From: Pseudomonadota bacterium
GTDB taxonomy: Bacteria > Pseudomonadota > Gammaproteobacteria > UBA12402
Assembly: GCA_039190005.1 (NCBI GenBank)
Contig: JBCCYM010000003.1
Coordinates: 7,715 to 71,714 of the forward strand
Direction of reading: 5' to 3'
Length of the DNA: 64,000 bases
Part shown: in pieces, positions 37,394 to 59,040 of the stretch
Numbering within the stretch: the first letter of the stretch is position 1
Layout of the letters: each line of letters begins with the position of its first letter
Notes under the pieces: generated by a model
The model's input: only the letters and a program-made list of their open reading frames with translations
What the model was told of the DNA's origin: nothing
Databases searched by the model: none
Program-made: the position numbers and the translations under genes

Positions 37394-37648
37394 GTGGATT
37401 CCCACACCTTGCCCGCCATTCCTGCACCCCTTCGACAAGCTCAGGGACCGCAGGCTCAGGAACCACGCTTCGTCATGCTCAGGATAAAATCCAGGAGAAA
37501 AATGTGTATGGGTGTGGTTTTAATGTAGCAAGACATATATACACAAACTACCATACTGCTCTCAACAATATCGAGCGTATTGTCGAAAGAAAAAATCTCT
37601 ATGCCTATAGTTTGTTCCCTGGATTCCCGCTTTCGCGGGAATGACGTA
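37394..37648. repeat. Composite roughly 255-bp element: degenerate family A left end, two family B units, internal sequence, family A right end
   Basis: GGATTCCCACAC...CCCCTTCGACAAGCTCAGGGACCGCAGGCTCAGGAACC ... AATCCAGGAGAAAAATGT ... TTCCCTGGATTCCCGCTTTCGCGGGAATGACG; fills the lapA-rpsA intergenic space. Confidence 0.55.
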
Positions 37649-51376: not shown

Positions 51377-51463
51377 GCCGGAGTGGCGGAATTGGTAGAC
51401 GCGCCGGATTCAAAATCCGGTGATGGCAACATCGTGTCGGTTCGAGTCCGACCTTCGGTACCA
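51377..51463 (+). tRNA. tRNA-Leu (CAA)
   Basis: 87 nt; anticodon stem-loop CCGGA-TTCAAAA-TCCGG; long variable arm; T-arm GTCGG/CCGAC; CCA end encoded. Confidence 0.9.
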
Positions 51464-51564
51464 TCAGGAGATGATCTTCAAAGCTTTGTGACAGCATTGG
51501 TTGATAGTATGAAGCCATTAATGGACAACAAACAATTATTGCATTACAAATTGCCAATCTTCAC

Positions 51565-51840
51565 ATGATGCAAATTCAATTAATTTCTGAATACGCATCT
51601 TCTACAGGATATCATCCTAAACCCAGTTCATTATCAGAAAAAATGAATAGTATTGCCAATTCAATTAGTAAGCTTGCAAATACAACTGCTAATTTAATGT
51701 CGCTCTACCACCGATTGCAATCAGACAGCACATTACCGACTGGCATTAACCATGTTAATGTTGCTTCAGGCGGTCAAGCGGTGGTGGGCAGTGTGATACA
51801 GACCGAAGTAAAAAATAAAAATAGCGGTAATACCCCATGA
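51565..51840 (+). CDS. Hypothetical protein (91 aa)
   Basis: ORF only; 4-nt overlap with the next ORF suggests a coupled pair. Confidence 0.3.
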   Translation: MMQIQLISEYASSTGYHPKPSSLSEKMNSIANSISKLANTTANLMSLYHRLQSDSTLPTGINHVNVASGGQAVVGSVIQTEVKNKNSGNTP

Positions 51841-52088
51841 AACGATGTAATGCTAAGACAAGAAAAGGTACACCTTGCCAACGCTATGCCCTTAAAAACG
51901 TCAAAAATGGACGTTGTCGGCTACATGGTATATCTACCGGAGCTAAAACAAAAGCCGGTAGAGAGCGTTTACGGGCTGCTCAGCTCAAACATGGGTATTA
52001 CAGCAAAGAATCTATATCACAGCGCAAAAAAATAAAAGAGATGCTTACTTTAGCAACAGAAACAATTCAAATGGCAGAGAATGCTTAA
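51837..52088 (+). CDS. Small basic Cys-containing protein (83 aa) with C-x8-C ... RCRLHG motif, zinc-ribbon-like
   Basis: MKRCNAKTRKGTPCQRYALKNVKNGRCRLHGISTGAKTKAGRERL; resembles a small-protein motif (RCRxHGGxSxG) I recall from other proteobacteria but cannot name. Confidence 0.4.
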   Translation: MKRCNAKTRKGTPCQRYALKNVKNGRCRLHGISTGAKTKAGRERLRAAQLKHGYYSKESISQRKKIKEMLTLATETIQMAENA

Positions 52089-52218
52089 TCACCCAGTTTC
52101 GATGCTGCAAATAACTAGCTATAAATTCTTGCAATTATTTTTTAATTGTTGATAATTGTATTGCTTTACGGACATTGGCATCATAATCAATATTATTCAA
52201 ATGATGGAGATATTAACA

Positions 52219-52758
52219 ATGGCAAAAACTGGTTATATAAAATATTTTATCAAATTCTTTTTTTATTTTTTAATATGTTTAGGATATTTTTTGAATTCAT
52301 TTATTTTTGCTCAGGCTCAAACTATACCAACGTTTGTTACTGGCAATAAATTTTTGGGCTGGTGTAGCGCTGTAAAAAAGATTGCTGATGGTTCAATATC
52401 TAACGCCAGCGTTTCTGATGATTATAATTCTTTTATTGCAGTTAGTTATGCTTTGGGCGTGCATGATGCATACATGGAAAATTTATCTTACTTAATGAAA
52501 AATAATTTCGCTGAATGTTATAACAAAAATTACTTAGGCTTTAAACCACAACAACTAGTATTATCAGTATGCAAATATTTAGACAATCATCCAGAAACTT
52601 TAAATTATAGTGCTGCATCTATTATTCAAGTTGTAATTACAAGTGAATATCCTATTCCTGAGCAGTGTTATAATAAGAAAGAAAAAATTGACTTATCAAA
52701 ATATAAAATAGATACAACTAATCAGAAAAATAAAACTTCAAACACTAACAAAAAATAG
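52219..52758 (+). CDS. Hypothetical secreted protein (about 180 aa, 4 Cys)
   Basis: Signal peptide MAKTGYIKYFIKFFFYFLICLGYFLNSFIFAQA|QT from an internal ATG; the ORF-track start at 52156 is probably too far upstream. Confidence 0.5.
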   Translation: MAKTGYIKYFIKFFFYFLICLGYFLNSFIFAQAQTIPTFVTGNKFLGWCSAVKKIADGSISNASVSDDYNSFIAVSYALGVHDAYMENLSYLMKNNFAECYNKNYLGFKPQQLVLSVCKYLDNHPETLNYSAASIIQVVITSEYPIPEQCYNKKEKIDLSKYKIDTTNQKNKTSNTNKK

Positions 52759-53458
52759 AGAGTATTTAATTTGAAAGATCTATTTTTAGGCATATTATAT
52801 TATTAATTTGTTTAGTAATTTTCTTATTGCACTCTTGTCATAACAATCCTGAGGATGCTCCTGAGTATAAACAAAATTACAGCACCGTGTACGATGATAG
52901 TGTAATTGATACATGTAATGTATGTAATAACAATGCGGTCTATGAAAGCCAAAAGGAACTGTGTCAGCAGATATGTCAGTAATTAAAAAACCTGGAATAA
53001 TTAATTGAAAAAATATTTGAGGTCAGAATAACGTGCCAACTGGATATTTCTTCATGAAATATCCAGTCACACGCCCTCATCCTCTCAGCCATTCATACTT
53101 GAAAACAGCCCTACCCATAAACCACTATTACTAGCAGCTTTGTTGCAACAAAATTGAGCCATCGATACTGACAGCTCGATTCCACACTCACACTATAATA
53201 TAGCGTGGCGATCCTCCATTTCCTCTTTGGTATAATCATAGTTTTTCTAATATGAATTATTGCTATTATTGTTTATTATTATTCACTAATGAGCTTGTAA
53301 TCTTAAATTGATTTTATAGTAATCATTATTTTCAAATAGTATTAGCGCAAAATTAACTTTAATCTTGGCATTATAAATTAGGACGTTGAAATCTATCTCA
53401 TATACTGCTACCTTGAACTTGCTAACAACATAGGATTTCATCATGGAAAATTATCGTC

Positions 53459-54715
53459 ATGTTAATTAAAACATTTACTTACTGCATTATTGGGACAGTA
53501 TTGGAATGGTACGACTTCGCGCTTTTTGGTGTCCTTGCACCTATCCTATCTACCATTTTTTTTCCGCATAAGGATAAAACAACCAGTTTACTAATAGCTT
53601 TTTCTATCTTTGCTACTGGATTTCTAACGCGACCACTTGGCAGCATTTTCTTTGGACATATTGGCGACCGCTATGGTCGAAAAAAAGCGATTATTCTATC
53701 AATGTTGCTAATGTGTTTTTCAACTGTTGGGATTGGATTATTACCCATTCATCACGTCAATACACATCTTATTGTGATGGTTCTGGTTATCTTAAGACTT
53801 TTCCAAGGCTTTTCAGTAGGTGGTGAGACAGGCGGCATTATTACCTTTGTCAGTGAATTATTTTCCAGGAAAGAAAAATTGTTTTTTTACCAAAGCTTTA
53901 TTTATGCTGGCATGAACGCTGGCATTTTATTGGGAACGGCTATTGGCAGTCTTACATTTTCTGTTTATCACCATAATATTCAAACCAATGTTTGGCGATT
54001 ACCTTTTCTTATCAGTTTATTATTAGGGATTGTTGGACTTTATTTACGTTTAAAAGCGATTGAGTCGCCGATATTTAGCAGCATCTTACAACAAAATAAA
54101 GTGGTAAAAATACCTTTTGTTTATATGTTGAGAAAATGTTATAGACAGGTAATTTTTTCATTATTACTGATGTTCTCTGGCGCAATTGTTTTCTACTATA
54201 CACTCTTCTATTACCCAGCATATATCAATCATTTCCTAAAATTTGGTCGATATTTGCATGTTGAGATTATAGGATTAGTCTGTTTACTTTTTCTTGCGCC
54301 ATTTTTTAGTTTCTTTTACACAAAAAACAATGTGAGAAAAATTACTATCGCAGGATTTCTGAGTTTTCTTATTTTCCCAATTCCAACTTTAATTTTGGTT
54401 GCATTATATCCACATCAACTCGCATTGGTAATACAGTTGTTCTATATTGTTTGCTATAGCACTTTTCAATCGCTTATTCCAACACTGCCATGCCTGTCTT
54501 TTCCCCATGAGGTCAGATACACTGGTCTATCATTTTGCTTTAATGTGGCAGTATTATTTGGCGGAACATTCCCAATGGCTGCTATCTTACTGACGAAAAT
54601 AACAGGTCTCTCTTTTGCCGGCGGCCTATATATGGCACTAGCAGCCTTGCCAGCAATTATTGCGCTGCTGTATCTCTGGAAAACAATGGCAATTACAGCA
54701 CGACCAAATCACTAG
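53459..54715 (+). CDS. MFS transporter, metabolite:H+ symporter (MHS, ProP/KgtP-like) family
   Basis: N-terminal LEWYDFALFG and GHIGDRYGRKK motifs typical of MHS; 12 TM. Confidence 0.8.
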   Translation: MLIKTFTYCIIGTVLEWYDFALFGVLAPILSTIFFPHKDKTTSLLIAFSIFATGFLTRPLGSIFFGHIGDRYGRKKAIILSMLLMCFSTVGIGLLPIHHVNTHLIVMVLVILRLFQGFSVGGETGGIITFVSELFSRKEKLFFYQSFIYAGMNAGILLGTAIGSLTFSVYHHNIQTNVWRLPFLISLLLGIVGLYLRLKAIESPIFSSILQQNKVVKIPFVYMLRKCYRQVIFSLLLMFSGAIVFYYTLFYYPAYINHFLKFGRYLHVEIIGLVCLLFLAPFFSFFYTKNNVRKITIAGFLSFLIFPIPTLILVALYPHQLALVIQLFYIVCYSTFQSLIPTLPCLSFPHEVRYTGLSFCFNVAVLFGGTFPMAAILLTKITGLSFAGGLYMALAALPAIIALLYLWKTMAITARPNH

Positions 54716-55511
54716 AAAGGTAAAAATCGACTAATTCTGAACGCGCACTCATACCAAGTCTTTCTTTCAGATTATTCTGATAGGTTTCAACGGCTCGATA
54801 GGAACCCAACCCAAGCAGAATAGCCGTTTCTTTATTACTCCTGCCTTGCGCTAAACATCTCAAGCATTCAAATTCTCTTGCTGTAATCCCGATACGCTTT
54901 CCCTTATACACCACATTGTAATGCTTAGGTTGCAGACTTTTTTCTAATTTTTCTGGATTAAATGGCATCTCGCACCTCTTAGTATTATTATCATTGTCTA
55001 CATTGTTACCAAGCATAATTTTACTATGAAGCGCATCAGCAACCAGTCGCTTACTTTTTCCTAAAAAGTCATATTTTACTAAGGTCAAAAATCGCCAATT
55101 CTTAAAATAAAAATCCATCAAATTGCTACCATCGGAAGCAAAACAAAAAAGTTCATAGTTTTCATCACTCTGATCGACTATCACCACTGGCGTACCTAAG
55201 CCATATTCTTTCGCAATTGGACAAATGTTTTTATTATCTTCTCTTGGAAAATAAAATATCTGATTATGAATGGTATGTGTTGATTTCTTCGCTTCAATAC
55301 TATCAATCTGCTTATAACAAATAGCTTTTTTCATATTAATGGACATACCCGTCCATTTAGCATCACTTGATAAGAAAATCGATGAACCATCTTTCCAATA
55401 CTTAGAATAACAAAAAAATCGAACATCCGTGTTTTCAAATAATGGTCGGCATATTTGCCGCACATCATCTTGATAGGTGAATAAGTGACTTTTAGATAAA
55501 TCTTGCCGCAT
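54693..55511 (-). CDS. LuxR-family transcriptional regulator with uncharacterised roughly 200-aa N-terminal domain
   Basis: C-terminal LuxR-type HTH (ITAREFECLRCLAQGRSNKETAILLGLGSYRAVETYQNNLKERLG); N-terminal domain not confidently an autoinducer-binding domain. Confidence 0.65.
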   Translation of the reverse strand: MRQDLSKSHLFTYQDDVRQICRPLFENTDVRFFCYSKYWKDGSSIFLSSDAKWTGMSINMKKAICYKQIDSIEAKKSTHTIHNQIFYFPREDNKNICPIAKEYGLGTPVVIVDQSDENYELFCFASDGSNLMDFYFKNWRFLTLVKYDFLGKSKRLVADALHSKIMLGNNVDNDNNTKRCEMPFNPEKLEKSLQPKHYNVVYKGKRIGITAREFECLRCLAQGRSNKETAILLGLGSYRAVETYQNNLKERLGMSARSELVDFYLSSDLVVL

Positions 55512-55740
55512 TTTCCTTGCTCCTTTTTCTTATTTTTCGCAATGCTATTAGTGTACTCTTATAAAAAAAATAAAGCAAATGGGCTAAACCTAACAAATTT
55601 TCTATGGGACACTCACGGGACACTTGCAGATAAAAAACAGCGATTATCTACAATTGGTGACCACAATGAAAATCATATAATATTATGATTTTATTACAAT
55701 TATTGATTGTCAATTATTGCCGCTATTAGTATAATTTCAG

Positions 55741-55796
55741 ATTCAAAATCCGGTGATGGCAACATCGTGTCGGTTCGAGTCCGACCTTCGGTACCA
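55741..55796 (+). repeat. Duplicate of the 3' 56 nt of tRNA-Leu (putative attR)
   Basis: Identical to 51408-51463. Confidence 0.8.
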
Positions 55797-55806
55797 AAAT
55801 TATAGA

Positions 55807-55903
55807 ATAATAATTAATCAACTTGAAAGCAGAACATGTATGTTGGTAGGCACGATTGGGATTGAACCAACGACCCCCACCATGTCAAGGTGATGCTCTA
55901 CCA
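55807..55903. repeat. 97-bp direct repeat copy 1, containing the 3' 60 nt of tRNA-Val on the minus strand plus 37 bp of flank
   Basis: 96/97 identity with 56591-56687; tRNA-Val fragment at 55844-55903. Confidence 0.8.
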
Positions 55904-55972
55904 TTTTTAATCACACTTAAGCAATAATTAAAAATTGACTCAAAATGTGTATTGTGTGTATAATTTATTGTC

Positions 55973-56161
55973 ATGAAAAGTACGGAAATTATTAAAATCC
56001 TTAGAATGGATGGTTGGACAGAATGTCACAAAAAGGGGAGTCATTGTCAATTTAAACACCCGACAAAATCGGGCAAAGTGACTGTGCCTCACCCCAAAAA
56101 GGATTTACCTATAAAAACCGTTAATAGCATATTTAAACAGGCAAATATTAGCCGGAGGTAA
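55973..56161 (+). CDS. hicA: Type II toxin HicA (YcfA-like mRNA interferase)
   Basis: 62 aa; GWxxxxxKGSHxxFKHP...GKVTVPHP pattern typical of HicA. Confidence 0.85.
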   Translation: MKSTEIIKILRMDGWTECHKKGSHCQFKHPTKSGKVTVPHPKKDLPIKTVNSIFKQANISRR

Positions 56162-56165
56162 GATC

Positions 56166-56594
56166 ATGCACTACCCAGTTGTGATTCATAAAGATAAAGA
56201 AAGTGATTTTGGCGTCATCGTTCCAGATCTTGCGGGCTGTTTTTCTGCTGGTGACACCTATGAAGAAGCGCTTACCAACGCGGTAGAGGCAATTGAGTGC
56301 CACCTGGAAGGTTTATTGCGCGATAATCAAACCATCCCTGTCGCCAAAGAAATTGATAACTACATTCATAAACGTGAATACGCAGGAGGTATATGGGCTT
56401 TAGTTGAAATCAACATTAGCCAATTATCCGGTAAAGCTAAGCGAATTAATATTACTTTACCCGAACGACTATTGCGCCTGATTGATCTTCATGCAAAAAA
56501 TCTTGCTCATAAGAACCGGTCCGCATTTATTGCTGATGCGACATTAGCTTATATGTCTCAAGATAACTACCAACACAACACCAGAGAGAGATAA
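56166..56594 (+). CDS. hicB: Type II antitoxin HicB with C-terminal RHH DNA-binding domain
   Basis: 142 aa; N-terminal HicB fold motif (HYPVVIHKDKESDFGVIVPDLAGCFSAGDTYEEAL); C-terminal RINITLPERLLRLID ribbon-helix-helix. Confidence 0.85.
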   Translation: MHYPVVIHKDKESDFGVIVPDLAGCFSAGDTYEEALTNAVEAIECHLEGLLRDNQTIPVAKEIDNYIHKREYAGGIWALVEINISQLSGKAKRINITLPERLLRLIDLHAKNLAHKNRSAFIADATLAYMSQDNYQHNTRER

Positions 56595-56687
56595 TAATTA
56601 GTCAACTTGAAAGCAGAACATGTATGTTGGTAGGCACGATTGGGATTGAACCAACGACCCCCACCATGTCAAGGTGATGCTCTACCA
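56591..56687. repeat. 97-bp direct repeat copy 2, overlapping the 3' 60 nt of the intact tRNA-Val
   Basis: See copy 1. Confidence 0.8.
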
Positions 56688-56702
56688 CTGAGCTACGTGC
56701 CT
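56628..56702 (-). tRNA. tRNA-Val (GAC)
   Basis: Minus-strand cloverleaf: acceptor AGGCACG/CGTGCCT, D-arm GCTC/GAGC, anticodon loop TTGACAT, T-arm GTTGG/CCAAT, CCA encoded. Confidence 0.85.
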
Positions 56703-58903: not shown

Positions 58904-59040
58904 TCTCCTCCGTCATTCCCGCGCAGGCGGGAATCCAGGAGAAAAATGTTTATGCCTGTGGTTTGTTCGCTGGATTCCCGCCTGCGCGGGAATGACGAGG
59001 AAAAGATGCGGGAATGACGGGGAAGAGATGCGGGAATGAC
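58904..59040. repeat. Family A full 85-bp element followed by three tandem roughly 22-bp partial copies of its end (GATGCGGGAATGACGRGGWA)
   Basis: Seen directly; lies in the divergent uvrB/aminotransferase promoter region, ending 33 bp before the aminotransferase ATG. Confidence 0.65.

What the first reader, a model, noticed from the sequence alone, without database searches (positions are those of the whole stretch)
55807..56702. hicAB toxin-antitoxin cassette bracketed by 97-bp direct repeats that contain the 3' end of tRNA-Val
Copy 1 (55807-55903) and copy 2 (56591-56687) are 96/97 identical. Each comprises the 3' 60 nt of tRNA-Val(GAC) plus 37 bp of downstream flank. Exactly one HicA/HicB pair (687 bp) lies between them. 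Homologous recombination between the repeats would excise the toxin-antitoxin cleanly and restore a single tRNA-Val, so this looks like a minimal tRNA-targeted mobile toxin-antitoxin cassette or the stump of a decayed larger element. It lies 45 bp from the tRNA-Leu attR, so two independent insertions are stacked at one tRNA-Leu/tRNA-Val hotspot.
Basis: partly seen in the sequence, partly recalled or inferred. Interest (0 to 1): 0.65.

Follow-up and report, generated by a model that had tools for sequence, protein, structure and literature searches.

The report
Bare hicAB cassette beside tRNA-Val
A complete two-gene toxin-antitoxin unit (hicA-hicB), with no mobility gene of its own, sits just behind a valine tRNA gene between two 97-base copies of the insertion site, which gives a clean sequence example of how such "addiction" cassettes may enter chromosomes.

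Summary
Window 55807-55903 and 56591-56687 are 96/97 identical. Each copy holds nt 16-75 of tRNA-Val(GAC) plus 37 nt of its 3' flank. The 687 bp between them hold only a sigma-70-like promoter, hicA (62 aa) and hicB (142 aa), both intact. The tRNA next to copy 2 is whole; copy 1 is a dead fragment.

No integrase or remnant was found in the insert or among the window ORFs tested. None of 160 related hicAB loci carries this repeat. No close relative exists in the collections, so no empty site could be found.

The repeat runs from the D-loop to 37 nt past the tRNA. The neighbouring tRNA-Leu island has a canonical 57-nt repeat instead.

About 10% of related hicAB pairs are bracketed by direct repeats, against 1.2% of neighbouring genes. 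In several, the repeat is the duplicated 3' end of a flanking gene.

[quoted passage not shown] A decayed integrase-borne element (CIME-like) remains a serious rival.

Verdict: a real feature, a modest new variant of a known kind, moderate interest.

The parts
55807..55903 (.). Direct repeat copy 1 (97 nt). It is the copy distal to the intact tRNA and lies 10 nt from the tRNA-Leu 3' fragment.
55844..55903 (-). Truncated tRNA-Val(GAC) fragment, nt 16-75. It lacks the 5' 15 nt and is not detected as a tRNA.
55904..55972 (+). 69-nt leader of the insert. It holds a sigma-70-like promoter, TTGACT-18-TATAAT, at 55935-55964 (11 of 12 matches), and GTGTAT repeats that are also seen upstream of hicA in L103 and L142.
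55973..56161 (+). hicA toxin gene, 62 aa. Gly22-Ser23-His24 are present.
56166..56594 (+). hicB antitoxin gene, 142 aa. Its stop codon lies inside repeat copy 2.
56591..56687 (.). Direct repeat copy 2 (97 nt), continuous with the 5' 15 nt of the tRNA.
56628..56702 (-). Intact tRNA-Val(GAC).
   Evidence: (66.7 bits)
55740..55796 (+). Context: tRNA-Leu(CAA) 3' 57-nt fragment. It is the right-hand repeat of the neighbouring 4.3-kb island, which has no integrase.
51377..51463 (+). Context: intact tRNA-Leu(CAA). Its last 57 nt form the left-hand repeat of the island at 51464-55739.

Best explanation
An intact hicA-hicB type II toxin-antitoxin operon with its own promoter entered the chromosome as a bare 687-bp cassette immediately 3' of tRNA-Val(GAC). 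The event duplicated 97 bp of the target: the last 60 nt of the tRNA plus 37 nt of flank. One complete tRNA survives next to hicB, and a dead tRNA fragment sits upstream of hicA.

The cassette encodes no recombinase. Its structure best fits 'insertion with long target duplication'. That mode was described for restriction-modification addiction units: only the selfish genes are inside, there is no mobility gene, and the repeat is longer than 30 bp and overlaps the 3' end of a neighbouring gene.

**How the duplication arose (inferred, not shown).** The likeliest route is recombination without a cassette-encoded enzyme. Examples are one-ended homologous plus illegitimate joining of incoming DNA that already carried hicAB beside the same flank, or single-crossover integration of a circularised fragment.

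**What it does now (inferred from family knowledge).** HicA is a ribosome-independent RNase. HicB neutralises it and represses the operon through its C-terminal ribbon-helix-helix domain. The 97-bp repeats allow precise loss by homologous recombination. Cells that lose the cassette would be arrested by the remaining HicA, so the unit holds itself in place.
For: **Anatomy.**

**The insert holds nothing but the operon.**
- Homology to other hicAB operons spans window 55946-56555.
- That leaves about 42 nt on the left and about 35 nt on the right. The right-hand stretch is still hicB coding sequence.
- There are no terminal inverted repeats.

**No integrase was found.**
- Pfam scans of 28 window ORFs found none.
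- tblastn with two tyrosine recombinases gave no hit in the window.

**The repeat limits are atypical for a tRNA integrase.**
- The repeat runs from the D-loop to 37 nt beyond the CCA end.
- The adjacent tRNA-Leu island has the canonical block, from the anticodon arm to the CCA end (57 nt).
- Phage PotUPM1 carries a 51-nt tRNA-Val(GAC) block beside a lambda-type integrase.

**The geometry recurs elsewhere.**
- 15 of 144 related hicAB pairs have direct repeats (score 18 or more) within 300 nt on both sides, against 6 of 517 other genes in the same loci (odds ratio 9.9, p 1e-6). After collapsing redundant loci the count is 9 of 134 (p 8e-4).
- In 6 of 9 two-copy cases, one repeat copy lies on or next to the 3' end of a flanking ORF. 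Examples are L142 (51 nt, the last ~15 codons of a 190-aa gene), L103 (the end of a 674-aa gene) and L038 (the end of an ornithine-carbamoyltransferase-like (argF-like) gene).

**Literature.** The class is defined in Furuta et al. 2010 (PMC2853133).

**The proteins look functional.**
- HicA matches the solved Burkholderia-type HicA (4c26, E 1e-15) and HicB matches 6g1n/6g26 (E 2.5e-27).
- His24 is present where the 4c26 chain has Ala.
Against: - No empty site is available, so 'target duplication' is inferred from the flanks alone. The nearest UvrB is only 79% identical and its locus lacks the tRNA. Exact DNA searches found nothing.
- The repeat does contain the 3' part of a tRNA, the classic integrase target. 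The neighbouring tRNA-Leu island shows that integrase-less, att-flanked DNA exists in this genome.
- Part of the repeat enrichment at other hicAB loci comes from integron-like arrays (L168) or tandem units (L152), not from target duplication.
- The published rationale for long target duplication, DNA breakage by the restriction enzyme, does not apply to an RNase toxin.
- The mechanism of the duplication is unknown.
- The sequence comes from a single metagenome-assembled contig.
Confidence: 0.45

Rival explanations
1. **Remnant or satellite of a tRNA-Val-targeting integrative element (CIME-like).** A tyrosine integrase carried out site-specific integration into the 3' end of tRNA-Val. The 97-nt copies are attL and attR. 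The integrase and other genes were later deleted, or the cassette was always mobilised by an integrase acting in trans. The toxin-antitoxin pair survived because losing it is lethal.
For: - The position at a tRNA 3' end, with a repeat that restores the tRNA.
- tRNA-Val(GAC) 3' blocks are used next to integrases, as in phage PotUPM1.
- The adjacent tRNA-Leu carries an island with no integrase and a perfect canonical 57-nt repeat.
- CIMEs are defined as elements that kept attL and attR but lost their integration and transfer genes (PMC5704250).
- Some Legionella plasmids and contigs have a tyrosine recombinase just upstream of a related hicAB.
Against: - No integrase remnant was found.
- Only about 42 nt and about 35 nt of non-conserved DNA remain inside the repeats, so two deletions would have had to end almost exactly at the att borders. 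There is no room for arm-type sites.
- The identity block starts in the D-loop and extends 37 nt past the tRNA at 36/37 identity, unlike canonical blocks.
- The plasmid recombinase-hicAB regions show no flanking repeats or tRNA fragments.
- None of 160 hicAB loci shows a tRNA-Val(GAC) fragment.
Confidence: 0.3
2. **Chance insertion between pre-existing repeats.** The ancestor had two tandem tRNA-Val(GAC) genes with similar 3' flanks. hicAB landed between them by illegitimate recombination and deleted the 5' 15 nt of one copy along with the spacer.
For: - Furuta et al. list 'chance insertions between repeated sequences' as one of three classes of repeat-flanked selfish units.
- Most related hicAB loci (about 90%) have no flanking repeats, so the cassette often inserts without making any.
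- Tandem tRNA-Val genes are common in bacteria (general knowledge).
Against: - It needs two events.
- It needs a recent tandem duplication that included at least 37 nt of flank at 36/37 identity.
- There is no other tRNA-Val copy or fragment in the window.
- It does not explain the recurrence of duplicated gene 3' ends at other hicAB loci.
Confidence: 0.1
3. **Assembly artefact.** The metagenome assembler threaded a loop once through a 97-bp repeat node. In reality the chromosome has an empty site, and hicAB is on a separate 784-bp circle or in another strain.
For: - The source is a MAG contig of 74,139 bp.
- The single mismatch lies 86 nt from the far junction, so k-mers shorter than that cannot link it to either topology (reasoning from the sequence).
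- Logan contigs from sample SRR22824305 break exactly at the repeat borders.
Against: - The two copies differ at one base, and each junction is a unique sequence.
- Ordinary 150-nt reads would span the 97-bp repeat.
- A non-replicating 784-bp circle would not be maintained at assembly-level coverage.
Confidence: 0.05

Closest known systems
Insertion with long target duplication of restriction-modification units (Nobusato et al. 2000; Furuta, Abe & Kobayashi 2010, PMC2853133)
   Same: - A small selfish 'addiction' gene unit sits alone between direct repeats longer than 30 bp, with no mobility gene.
- The repeat overlaps the 3' end of the neighbouring gene, which stays intact.
- Flanking repeats are enriched relative to average genes. 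That paper reports this for restriction-modification units; searches show it here for hicAB.
   Different: - The cargo is a type II toxin-antitoxin pair whose toxin cuts RNA, not DNA. The suggested role of DNA breakage by the cargo therefore cannot apply.
- The duplicated target is part of a tRNA.
- No empty-site genome is available to prove the duplication.
- In the searchable library, the papers I opened that hold both 'long target duplication' and 'toxin-antitoxin' only cite the term for restriction-modification units.
CIME (cis-mobilizable element): a decayed ICE or IME that keeps attL and attR (PMC5704250)
   Same: - It lies at a tRNA 3' end between direct repeats.
- It lacks integration and transfer genes.
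- It sits next to a second insertion of the same kind at tRNA-Leu.
   Different: - Only 687 bp with a single operon, and no remnants of element genes.
- No related element with an integrase is known.
- The repeat limits are atypical for an att identity block.
tRNA-targeting temperate phages and islands, for example Pseudomonas phage PotUPM1 (lambda-type integrase plus a 51-nt tRNA-Val(GAC) 3' block)
   Same: The same tRNA species and the same 3' portion of it are duplicated.
   Different: - PotUPM1's block stops at the anticodon arm and at the tRNA 3' end, and it lies about 100 nt from an integrase gene.
- The window repeat is 46 nt longer and has no integrase.
Toxin-antitoxin gene cassettes in chromosomal integrons
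   Same: The geometry is the same: repeat, about 70-100 nt, hicA-hicB, 0-50 nt, repeat. The spacing is about 785 bp (L168).
   Different: Integron arrays have many copies of an attC-type repeat at cassette spacing. The window has two copies of a tRNA-derived sequence, with no attC features and no array.
HicAB of Burkholderia pseudomallei (PDB 4c26, 6g1n, 6g26) and HicB3 of Yersinia pestis (4p78)
   Same: - hicA-then-hicB gene order.
- HicA fold family with the His24 position conserved.
- HicB with an N-terminal HicB-like domain and a C-terminal DNA-binding tail.
   Different: - Sequence divergence is high: these are phmmer matches at E 1e-15 to 2.5e-27.
- The closest relatives are Legionella chromosomal and plasmid HicB at 65-76% identity.

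Membership tests
HicAB type II toxin-antitoxin system | HicA toxin domain (PF07927) | tested here: met
   74.2 bits against a cut-off of 27, E 9e-21, residues 5-59.
HicAB type II toxin-antitoxin system | HicB antitoxin domain with a C-terminal DNA-binding (ribbon-helix-helix) region | tested here: met
   PF15919 scores 155.8 bits, E 7e-46. The RHH_1 hit at residues 93-122 is weak (E 0.009) and below its cut-off. The protein aligns over 138 residues to the solved HicB 6g1n.
HicAB type II toxin-antitoxin system | Toxin gene upstream of the antitoxin gene in one compact operon | tested here: met
   hicA at 55973-56161 and hicB at 56166-56594, with a 4-nt gap and one promoter-like site upstream.
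HicAB type II toxin-antitoxin system | Catalytic histidine of HicA | tested here: met
   Gly22-Ser23-His24 aligns with 'GSA' of chain 4c26. That 4c26 is the H24A variant is from memory.
HicAB type II toxin-antitoxin system | HicA toxicity and its neutralisation by HicB | not testable with these tools
   Needs expression experiments.
Insertion with long target duplication (Furuta et al. 2010 criteria) | The insert contains only the selfish gene unit and no mobility gene | tested here: met
   The 687-bp insert is promoter plus hicA plus hicB. No integrase or transposase was found.
Insertion with long target duplication (Furuta et al. 2010 criteria) | Insert shorter than 20 kb with a flanking direct repeat longer than 30 bp | tested here: met
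   687-bp insert; 97-bp repeat at 96/97 identity.
Insertion with long target duplication (Furuta et al. 2010 criteria) | A related genome has an empty site with one copy of the repeat | tested here: inconclusive
   No close relative is in the collections. Nearest UvrB is 79% identical and its locus has no tRNA-Val. Exact searches found nothing. The flanks themselves are consistent with a single ancestral copy.
Insertion with long target duplication (Furuta et al. 2010 criteria) | The cargo is a restriction-modification system | tested here: not met
   The cargo is a toxin-antitoxin pair, so this would extend the class rather than add a member as originally defined.
tRNA-integrated genomic island or integrative element | Lies at the 3' end of a tRNA gene, flanked by a repeat of the tRNA 3' part | tested here: met
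tRNA-integrated genomic island or integrative element | Encodes an integrase (tyrosine or serine recombinase) | tested here: not met
   None in the insert. None among 28 window ORFs scanned. No tblastn hit in the window to two tyrosine recombinases.
tRNA-integrated genomic island or integrative element | Identity block of canonical extent (anticodon or T loop to the tRNA 3' end) | tested here: not met
   The block runs from the D-loop (nt 16) to 37 nt beyond CCA. The neighbouring tRNA-Leu repeat and the PotUPM1 block are canonical.
tRNA-integrated genomic island or integrative element | Base composition differs from the host | tested here: inconclusive
   hicAB has GC 0.40-0.43 and the flanking core 0.42-0.47. 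The tRNA-Leu island, at 0.27-0.37, is clearly different.
CIME (cis-mobilizable element) | Retains functional attL and attR of a known ICE or IME family | tested here: inconclusive
   Repeats are present, but no cognate element or integrase was found in the viral, metagenome or genome loci.
CIME (cis-mobilizable element) | Lacks integration and transfer genes | tested here: met
Integron gene cassette | attC recombination site, several cassettes in an array, and an intI gene nearby | tested here: not met
   There are only two copies of a tRNA-derived repeat. No array and no integrase were found. Contrast L168, which has 5 repeats at cassette spacing.
Transposon, IS or MITE | Terminal inverted repeats and a short target duplication | tested here: not met
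   No inverted repeat brackets the insert. The duplication is 97 bp.

The most novel reading that the evidence does not exclude
Bare type II toxin-antitoxin operons (hicAB here, and possibly the GNAT/TacA-like pair seen in L116) are themselves a class of mobile unit. They would enter chromosomes at the 3' ends of genes with long, variable target duplications (about 20-220 bp), as proposed for restriction-modification units. They could then loop out, amplify or re-enter through those repeats without any dedicated recombinase. The window would be the cleanest and most recent example (97 bp, one mismatch). That would give a general, testable route for the long-noted horizontal mobility of solitary toxin-antitoxin loci.
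Probability: 0.15. Interest if true: 0.75.

Novelty: new variant of a known kind. Interest (0 to 1): 0.4.

Why it matters
Solitary toxin-antitoxin operons are famously mobile, yet how a two-gene unit with no recombinase gets into a chromosome is rarely visible in sequence.

This locus preserves both junctions almost unchanged. They show a 97-bp duplication of the target that keeps an essential-type gene (a tRNA) intact.

Two other results add to it. Flanking repeats are enriched around related hicAB pairs. In several other genomes the repeat is the duplicated 3' end of a neighbouring gene.

Together these suggest that the 'long target duplication' route, described for restriction-modification units, also serves toxin-antitoxin cassettes. 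If that is right, it gives a concrete, testable model: recombination-driven entry, followed by self-stabilisation through addiction against repeat-mediated loss.

If it is wrong, the locus is just a very small decayed tRNA island, which is ordinary.

Tried and rejected
1. **Exact-protein look-ups.** HicA, HicB and UvrB from the window are not on record. Ndk and the aminotransferase are found only in Logan sample SRR22824305, on contigs that break at repeats. That says nothing about presence or absence of the cassette.
2. **Synteny in the nearest relatives.** I looked at three of the closest UvrB homologues, including the nearest at 79% identity. None has tRNA-Val downstream of uvrB, so no empty site is available.
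3. **Exact DNA searches for the flank/tRNA junction.** Zero matches in viral contigs and in metagenome contigs.
4. **The same unit elsewhere.** 160 hicAB loci from genomes and metagenomes carry no 97-nt repeat and no tRNA-Val(GAC).
5. **Integron cassette reading.** Rejected for the window: two copies only and no attC features. It does explain some repeat-flanked hicAB loci elsewhere (L168).
6. **Transposon or MITE reading.** Rejected: no terminal inverted repeats.
7. **HPnc0260 antisense RNA hits on both repeat copies.** They score below the gathering threshold and reflect the antisense tRNA sequence.
8. **HicB C-terminal extension (142 aa against 134 aa) as a sign of truncation.** Rejected: tails of 134-148 aa vary freely among homologues.
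9. **Plasmid 'integrase-orf-hicAB' module as the ancestor.** No flanking repeats or tRNA fragments were found there, and the recombinase has no trace in the window.
10. **Empty site for the analogous Legionella-like locus L103.** All contigs shown that carry the identical flanking protein also carry the cassette (hicB called on all three, hicA on one), and the next homologue is only 47% identical.
11. **Literature searches for repeat-flanked hicAB at tRNA genes.** Nothing specific was found.
Full report
**1. Observation**

- The window holds a 97-nt direct repeat at 55807-55903 and 56591-56687, 96/97 identical.
- The only mismatch is A at 55817 against G at 56601.
- A 32-nt core of the repeat occurs exactly twice in the window and never in shuffles.
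- ARAGORN calls one intact tRNA-Val(GAC) on the minus strand at 56628-56702. Rfam's tRNA model scores 66.7 bits.
- Copy 2 is therefore tRNA nt 16-75 plus 37 nt of 3' flank.
- Copy 1 carries the same 60 nt (55844-55903) without the 5' 15 nt. Neither tool calls it a tRNA.
- The 687 bp between the copies (55904-56590) hold hicA (55973-56161, 62 aa, PF07927, E 9e-21) and hicB (56166-56594, 142 aa, PF15919, E 7e-46). Both are uninterrupted.
- The hicB stop codon lies 1-4 nt inside copy 2.
- A near-consensus promoter, TTGACT-18-TATAAT, lies at 55935-55964, inside the insert.
One detail differs: the repeat begins 10 nt after the tRNA-Leu fragment, and the tRNA-Val fragment begins 47 nt after it.

**2. 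Surroundings**

- The gene order is ndk, a low-molecular-weight phosphatase, tRNA-Leu(CAA) at 51377-51463, a 4.3-kb island, the tRNA-Leu 3' fragment, the hicAB unit, tRNA-Val, uvrB, then an aminotransferase.
- The island at 51464-55739 has GC 0.27-0.37, against 0.42-0.47 in the core.
- It encodes a Rap1a-like protein, an MFS transporter and a LuxR-type regulator.
- It is bracketed by a perfect 57-nt repeat, 51407-51463 and 55740-55796. That repeat runs from the anticodon arm exactly to the CCA end, which is the canonical identity block of tRNA-targeting integrases.
- Removing both inserts in thought gives convergent tRNA-Leu and tRNA-Val genes 47 nt apart.
- No integrase was found in either insert or among 28 window ORFs scanned with Pfam.
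- tblastn with a plasmid-type and a lambda-type tyrosine recombinase finds nothing in the window.

**3. Source and relatives**

- HicB and UvrB are 100% identical to proteins of one NCBI MAG labelled 'Pseudomonadota bacterium', on a contig of 74,139 bp.
- The next-best UvrB is 79% identical, on a 3.7-kb contig with no tRNA-Val downstream. The others are about 75% or less, and the named ones include Legionellaceae.
- There is therefore no strain-level or species-level relative with which to look for an empty site.
- Exact searches for the flank/tRNA junction found nothing in viral or metagenome contigs.
- Logan contigs of one sample (SRR22824305) carry identical Ndk and aminotransferase, but they stop at repeats. 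One ends precisely at the first base of the 57-nt tRNA-Leu repeat. They do not inform on hicAB.

**4. The cassette**

- The closest HicB relatives are 65-76% identical. They are abundant in Legionella chromosomes and conjugative plasmids.
- Nucleotide homology to these operons covers window 55946-56555. That span runs from the -10 region to HicB residue ~130.
- Only about 42 nt on the left of the insert and about 35 nt on the right are not shared. The right-hand stretch is still hicB coding sequence.
- The HicB tail varies from 134 to 148 aa among homologues, so the 142-aa length is not evidence of damage.
- HicA aligns to the solved HicA 4c26/6g26 (E 1e-15) with Gly22-Ser23-His24 in place. 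HicB aligns to 6g1n (E 2.5e-27).
- GTGTAT-type repeats around the -10 box recur upstream of hicA in L103 and L142. The promoter/operator therefore travels with the genes.
- The unit looks functional. Toxicity itself is untested.

**5. How did it get there?**

Three published classes of repeat-flanked selfish units frame the question (Furuta, Abe & Kobayashi 2010, PMC2853133):
- site-specific recombination, with tRNA 3' repeats of 45-49 bp and an integrase inside;
- insertion with long target duplication, with only the selfish genes inside, repeats longer than 30 bp, and repeats often overlapping the 3' end of a gene;
- chance insertion between existing repeats.

The window unit has the tRNA flavour of the first class. 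It meets the operational criteria of the second: nothing but hicAB inside, no integrase, and a 97-bp repeat.

Two further points argue against a classical att site:
- The repeat begins in the D-loop and runs 37 nt past the tRNA at 36/37 identity. The neighbouring tRNA-Leu repeat and the 51-nt tRNA-Val(GAC) block next to the integrase of phage PotUPM1 both stop at the canonical limits.
- There is no room inside the insert for arm sites or for gene remnants.

**6. Comparative test**

- I collected 160 related hicAB loci. None has the 97-nt sequence or a tRNA-Val(GAC).
- Direct repeats flanking the compact pair are nevertheless common.
  - 15 of 144 testable loci have them, against 6 of 517 other genes in the same loci. 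The odds ratio is 9.9 and p is 1e-6.
  - After collapsing redundant loci the count is 9 of 134 (p 8e-4).
  - After also removing array-type cases it is 7 of 132 (p 0.007).
- Some of these are integron-like arrays. L168 has five 93-nt repeats at 432-786-bp spacing. Others are tandem units (L152).
- In 6 of 9 two-copy cases, one repeat copy lies on or next to the 3' end of a flanking ORF.
  - In L142, a 51-nt repeat equals the last ~15 codons of the convergent downstream gene, with a remnant copy upstream of hicA.
  - In the Legionella-like L103, the repeat covers the last codons and 3' flank of a 674-aa gene.
  - In a conserved verrucomicrobial locus, a 39-58-nt repeat includes the last 15 nt of an ornithine-carbamoyltransferase-like (argF-like) gene. 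It sits 14 nt upstream of tRNA-Val(TAC).
- The geometry matches the window: repeat, 60-200 nt, hicA-hicB, 0-60 nt, repeat. The window values are 69 nt and -4 nt, with a spacing of 784 bp.
- This recurrence at different, non-tRNA targets is hard to explain by repeated decay of integrase-borne islands down to exactly the same two genes. It fits a target-duplicating insertion.

**7. Mechanism, with status of each step**

*Shown:*
- an intact operon with its own promoter;
- a 97-bp duplication that leaves one whole tRNA;
- no recombinase found in the cassette or among the window ORFs scanned;
- enrichment of similar structures at related loci.

*Inferred:*
- The duplication arose at insertion by recombination that needs no cassette-encoded enzyme. 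Candidates are one-ended homologous plus illegitimate joining of transforming DNA, single-crossover integration of a circularised fragment that carried the target segment, or repair of a staggered break.
- The one mismatch would then reflect donor/recipient polymorphism or later mutation.

*Inferred from family knowledge:*
- HicA degrades RNA independently of the ribosome.
- HicB binds HicA and represses the promoter.
- RecA-dependent or slippage-type recombination between 97-bp repeats 784 bp apart would delete the cassette precisely. Cells that lose it would suffer from residual HicA, so the cassette is self-stabilising.

**8. Rivals**

- **CIME-like remnant or trans-mobilised mini-element of a tRNA-Val integrase (0.30).** Favoured by the tRNA location, the neighbouring integrase-less tRNA-Leu island, and the CIME concept (PMC5704250). 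Disfavoured by the atypical block limits, the absence of remnants, and the absence of any cognate element.
- **Insertion between pre-existing tandem tRNA-Val copies (0.10).**
- **Assembly loop artefact (0.05).** This cannot be excluded without reads, because the mismatch lies 86 nt from the far junction.

**9. Novelty and verdict**

- HicAB and tRNA-linked islets are well known.
- Long target duplication is known for restriction-modification units. In the searchable library, 7 papers hold both 'long target duplication' and 'toxin-antitoxin'. The two I opened for this only cite the term.
- The locus is therefore a new variant of a known kind.
- It is a real, clean feature of moderate interest (0.4).
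- Its main value is as a lead towards how bare toxin-antitoxin cassettes enter chromosomes.
- The main weakness is that everything rests on one MAG contig with no empty site.

Noticed in passing
window 51464-55739 (repeats at 51407-51463 and 55740-55796): A 4.3-kb low-GC island (GC 0.27-0.37) with no integrase, in tRNA-Leu(CAA). It has a perfect, canonical 57-nt repeat running from the anticodon arm to CCA. It encodes a Rap1a-like immunity-type protein, an MFS transporter, a LuxR-type regulator and two small ORFs without Pfam hits.
   Followed up: partly
window 58904-59026; also 9706-9784, 21769-21792 and 37619-37642: A dispersed palindromic element, core ATTCCCGCGCAGGCGGGAATCCAG. Between uvrB and the aminotransferase it forms a perfect 28-nt hairpin with a 31-nt loop. 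There are 6 matches in the window, with 0 expected. A Logan contig of the same organism starts inside it.
   Followed up: partly
L031, L038, L041, L044, L115, L116, L119, L120 (for example L038 1837-2756): A conserved verrucomicrobial locus. The order is an ornithine-carbamoyltransferase-like (argF-like) gene, a 39-58-nt repeat that includes its last 15 nt, hicA-hicB, the repeat again, 14 nt, then tRNA-Val(TAC). This is a second hicAB next to a valine tRNA, but on its 5' side and with a different anticodon. It is probably coincidence.
   Followed up: partly
L116 3145-4599 (also L031, L119, L120); absent in L044 at 1875-1888: A second toxin-antitoxin pair in that locus (TacA-like antitoxin plus GNAT toxin) is bracketed by ~220-nt direct repeats at 85-92% identity. 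L044 lacks it and keeps only the last ~53 nt of the repeat region once. So this is an insertion/deletion polymorphism, but not a simple repeat-by-repeat deletion.
   Followed up: partly
L001 12002-13238 (Legionella shakespearei): A solitary D12-class adenine methyltransferase gene (12166-12978, minus strand) is flanked by 114-nt direct repeats. This is another small selfish-type gene with long flanking repeats.
   Followed up: no
L168 661-3258 (also L164, L166): hicAB sits as one unit in an integron-like array. There are five copies of a 93-nt repeat at 432-786-bp spacing.
   Followed up: partly
window 55959-55975; L103 4779-4809; L142 2398-2430: The -10 box of the hicA promoter ends only 8 nt before the ATG, so the transcript would be almost leaderless. 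GTGTAT-type repeats around the -10 box are conserved in distant hicAB loci and may be the HicB operator.
   Followed up: no
window 55707-55735: A strong promoter-like site (TTGTCA-17-TATAAT, 11 of 12 matches) lies at the right end of the tRNA-Leu island. It points into the tRNA-Leu fragment, the antisense of the tRNA-Val fragment, and hicA.
   Followed up: no
L171 2488-4625 (L. pneumophila plasmid NZ_CP015957); L010 152-1856; L090; L009: On some Legionella plasmids and contigs, a related hicAB (about 71% nt identity) lies a few hundred nt downstream of a 339-aa tyrosine recombinase. No flanking repeats or tRNA fragments were found there.
   Followed up: partly
L081 1-29 (Logan SRR22824305): A public-run contig carrying an Ndk identical to the window's ends exactly at the first base of the 57-nt tRNA-Leu repeat. 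This is consistent with the same repeat structure in that sample.
   Followed up: partly
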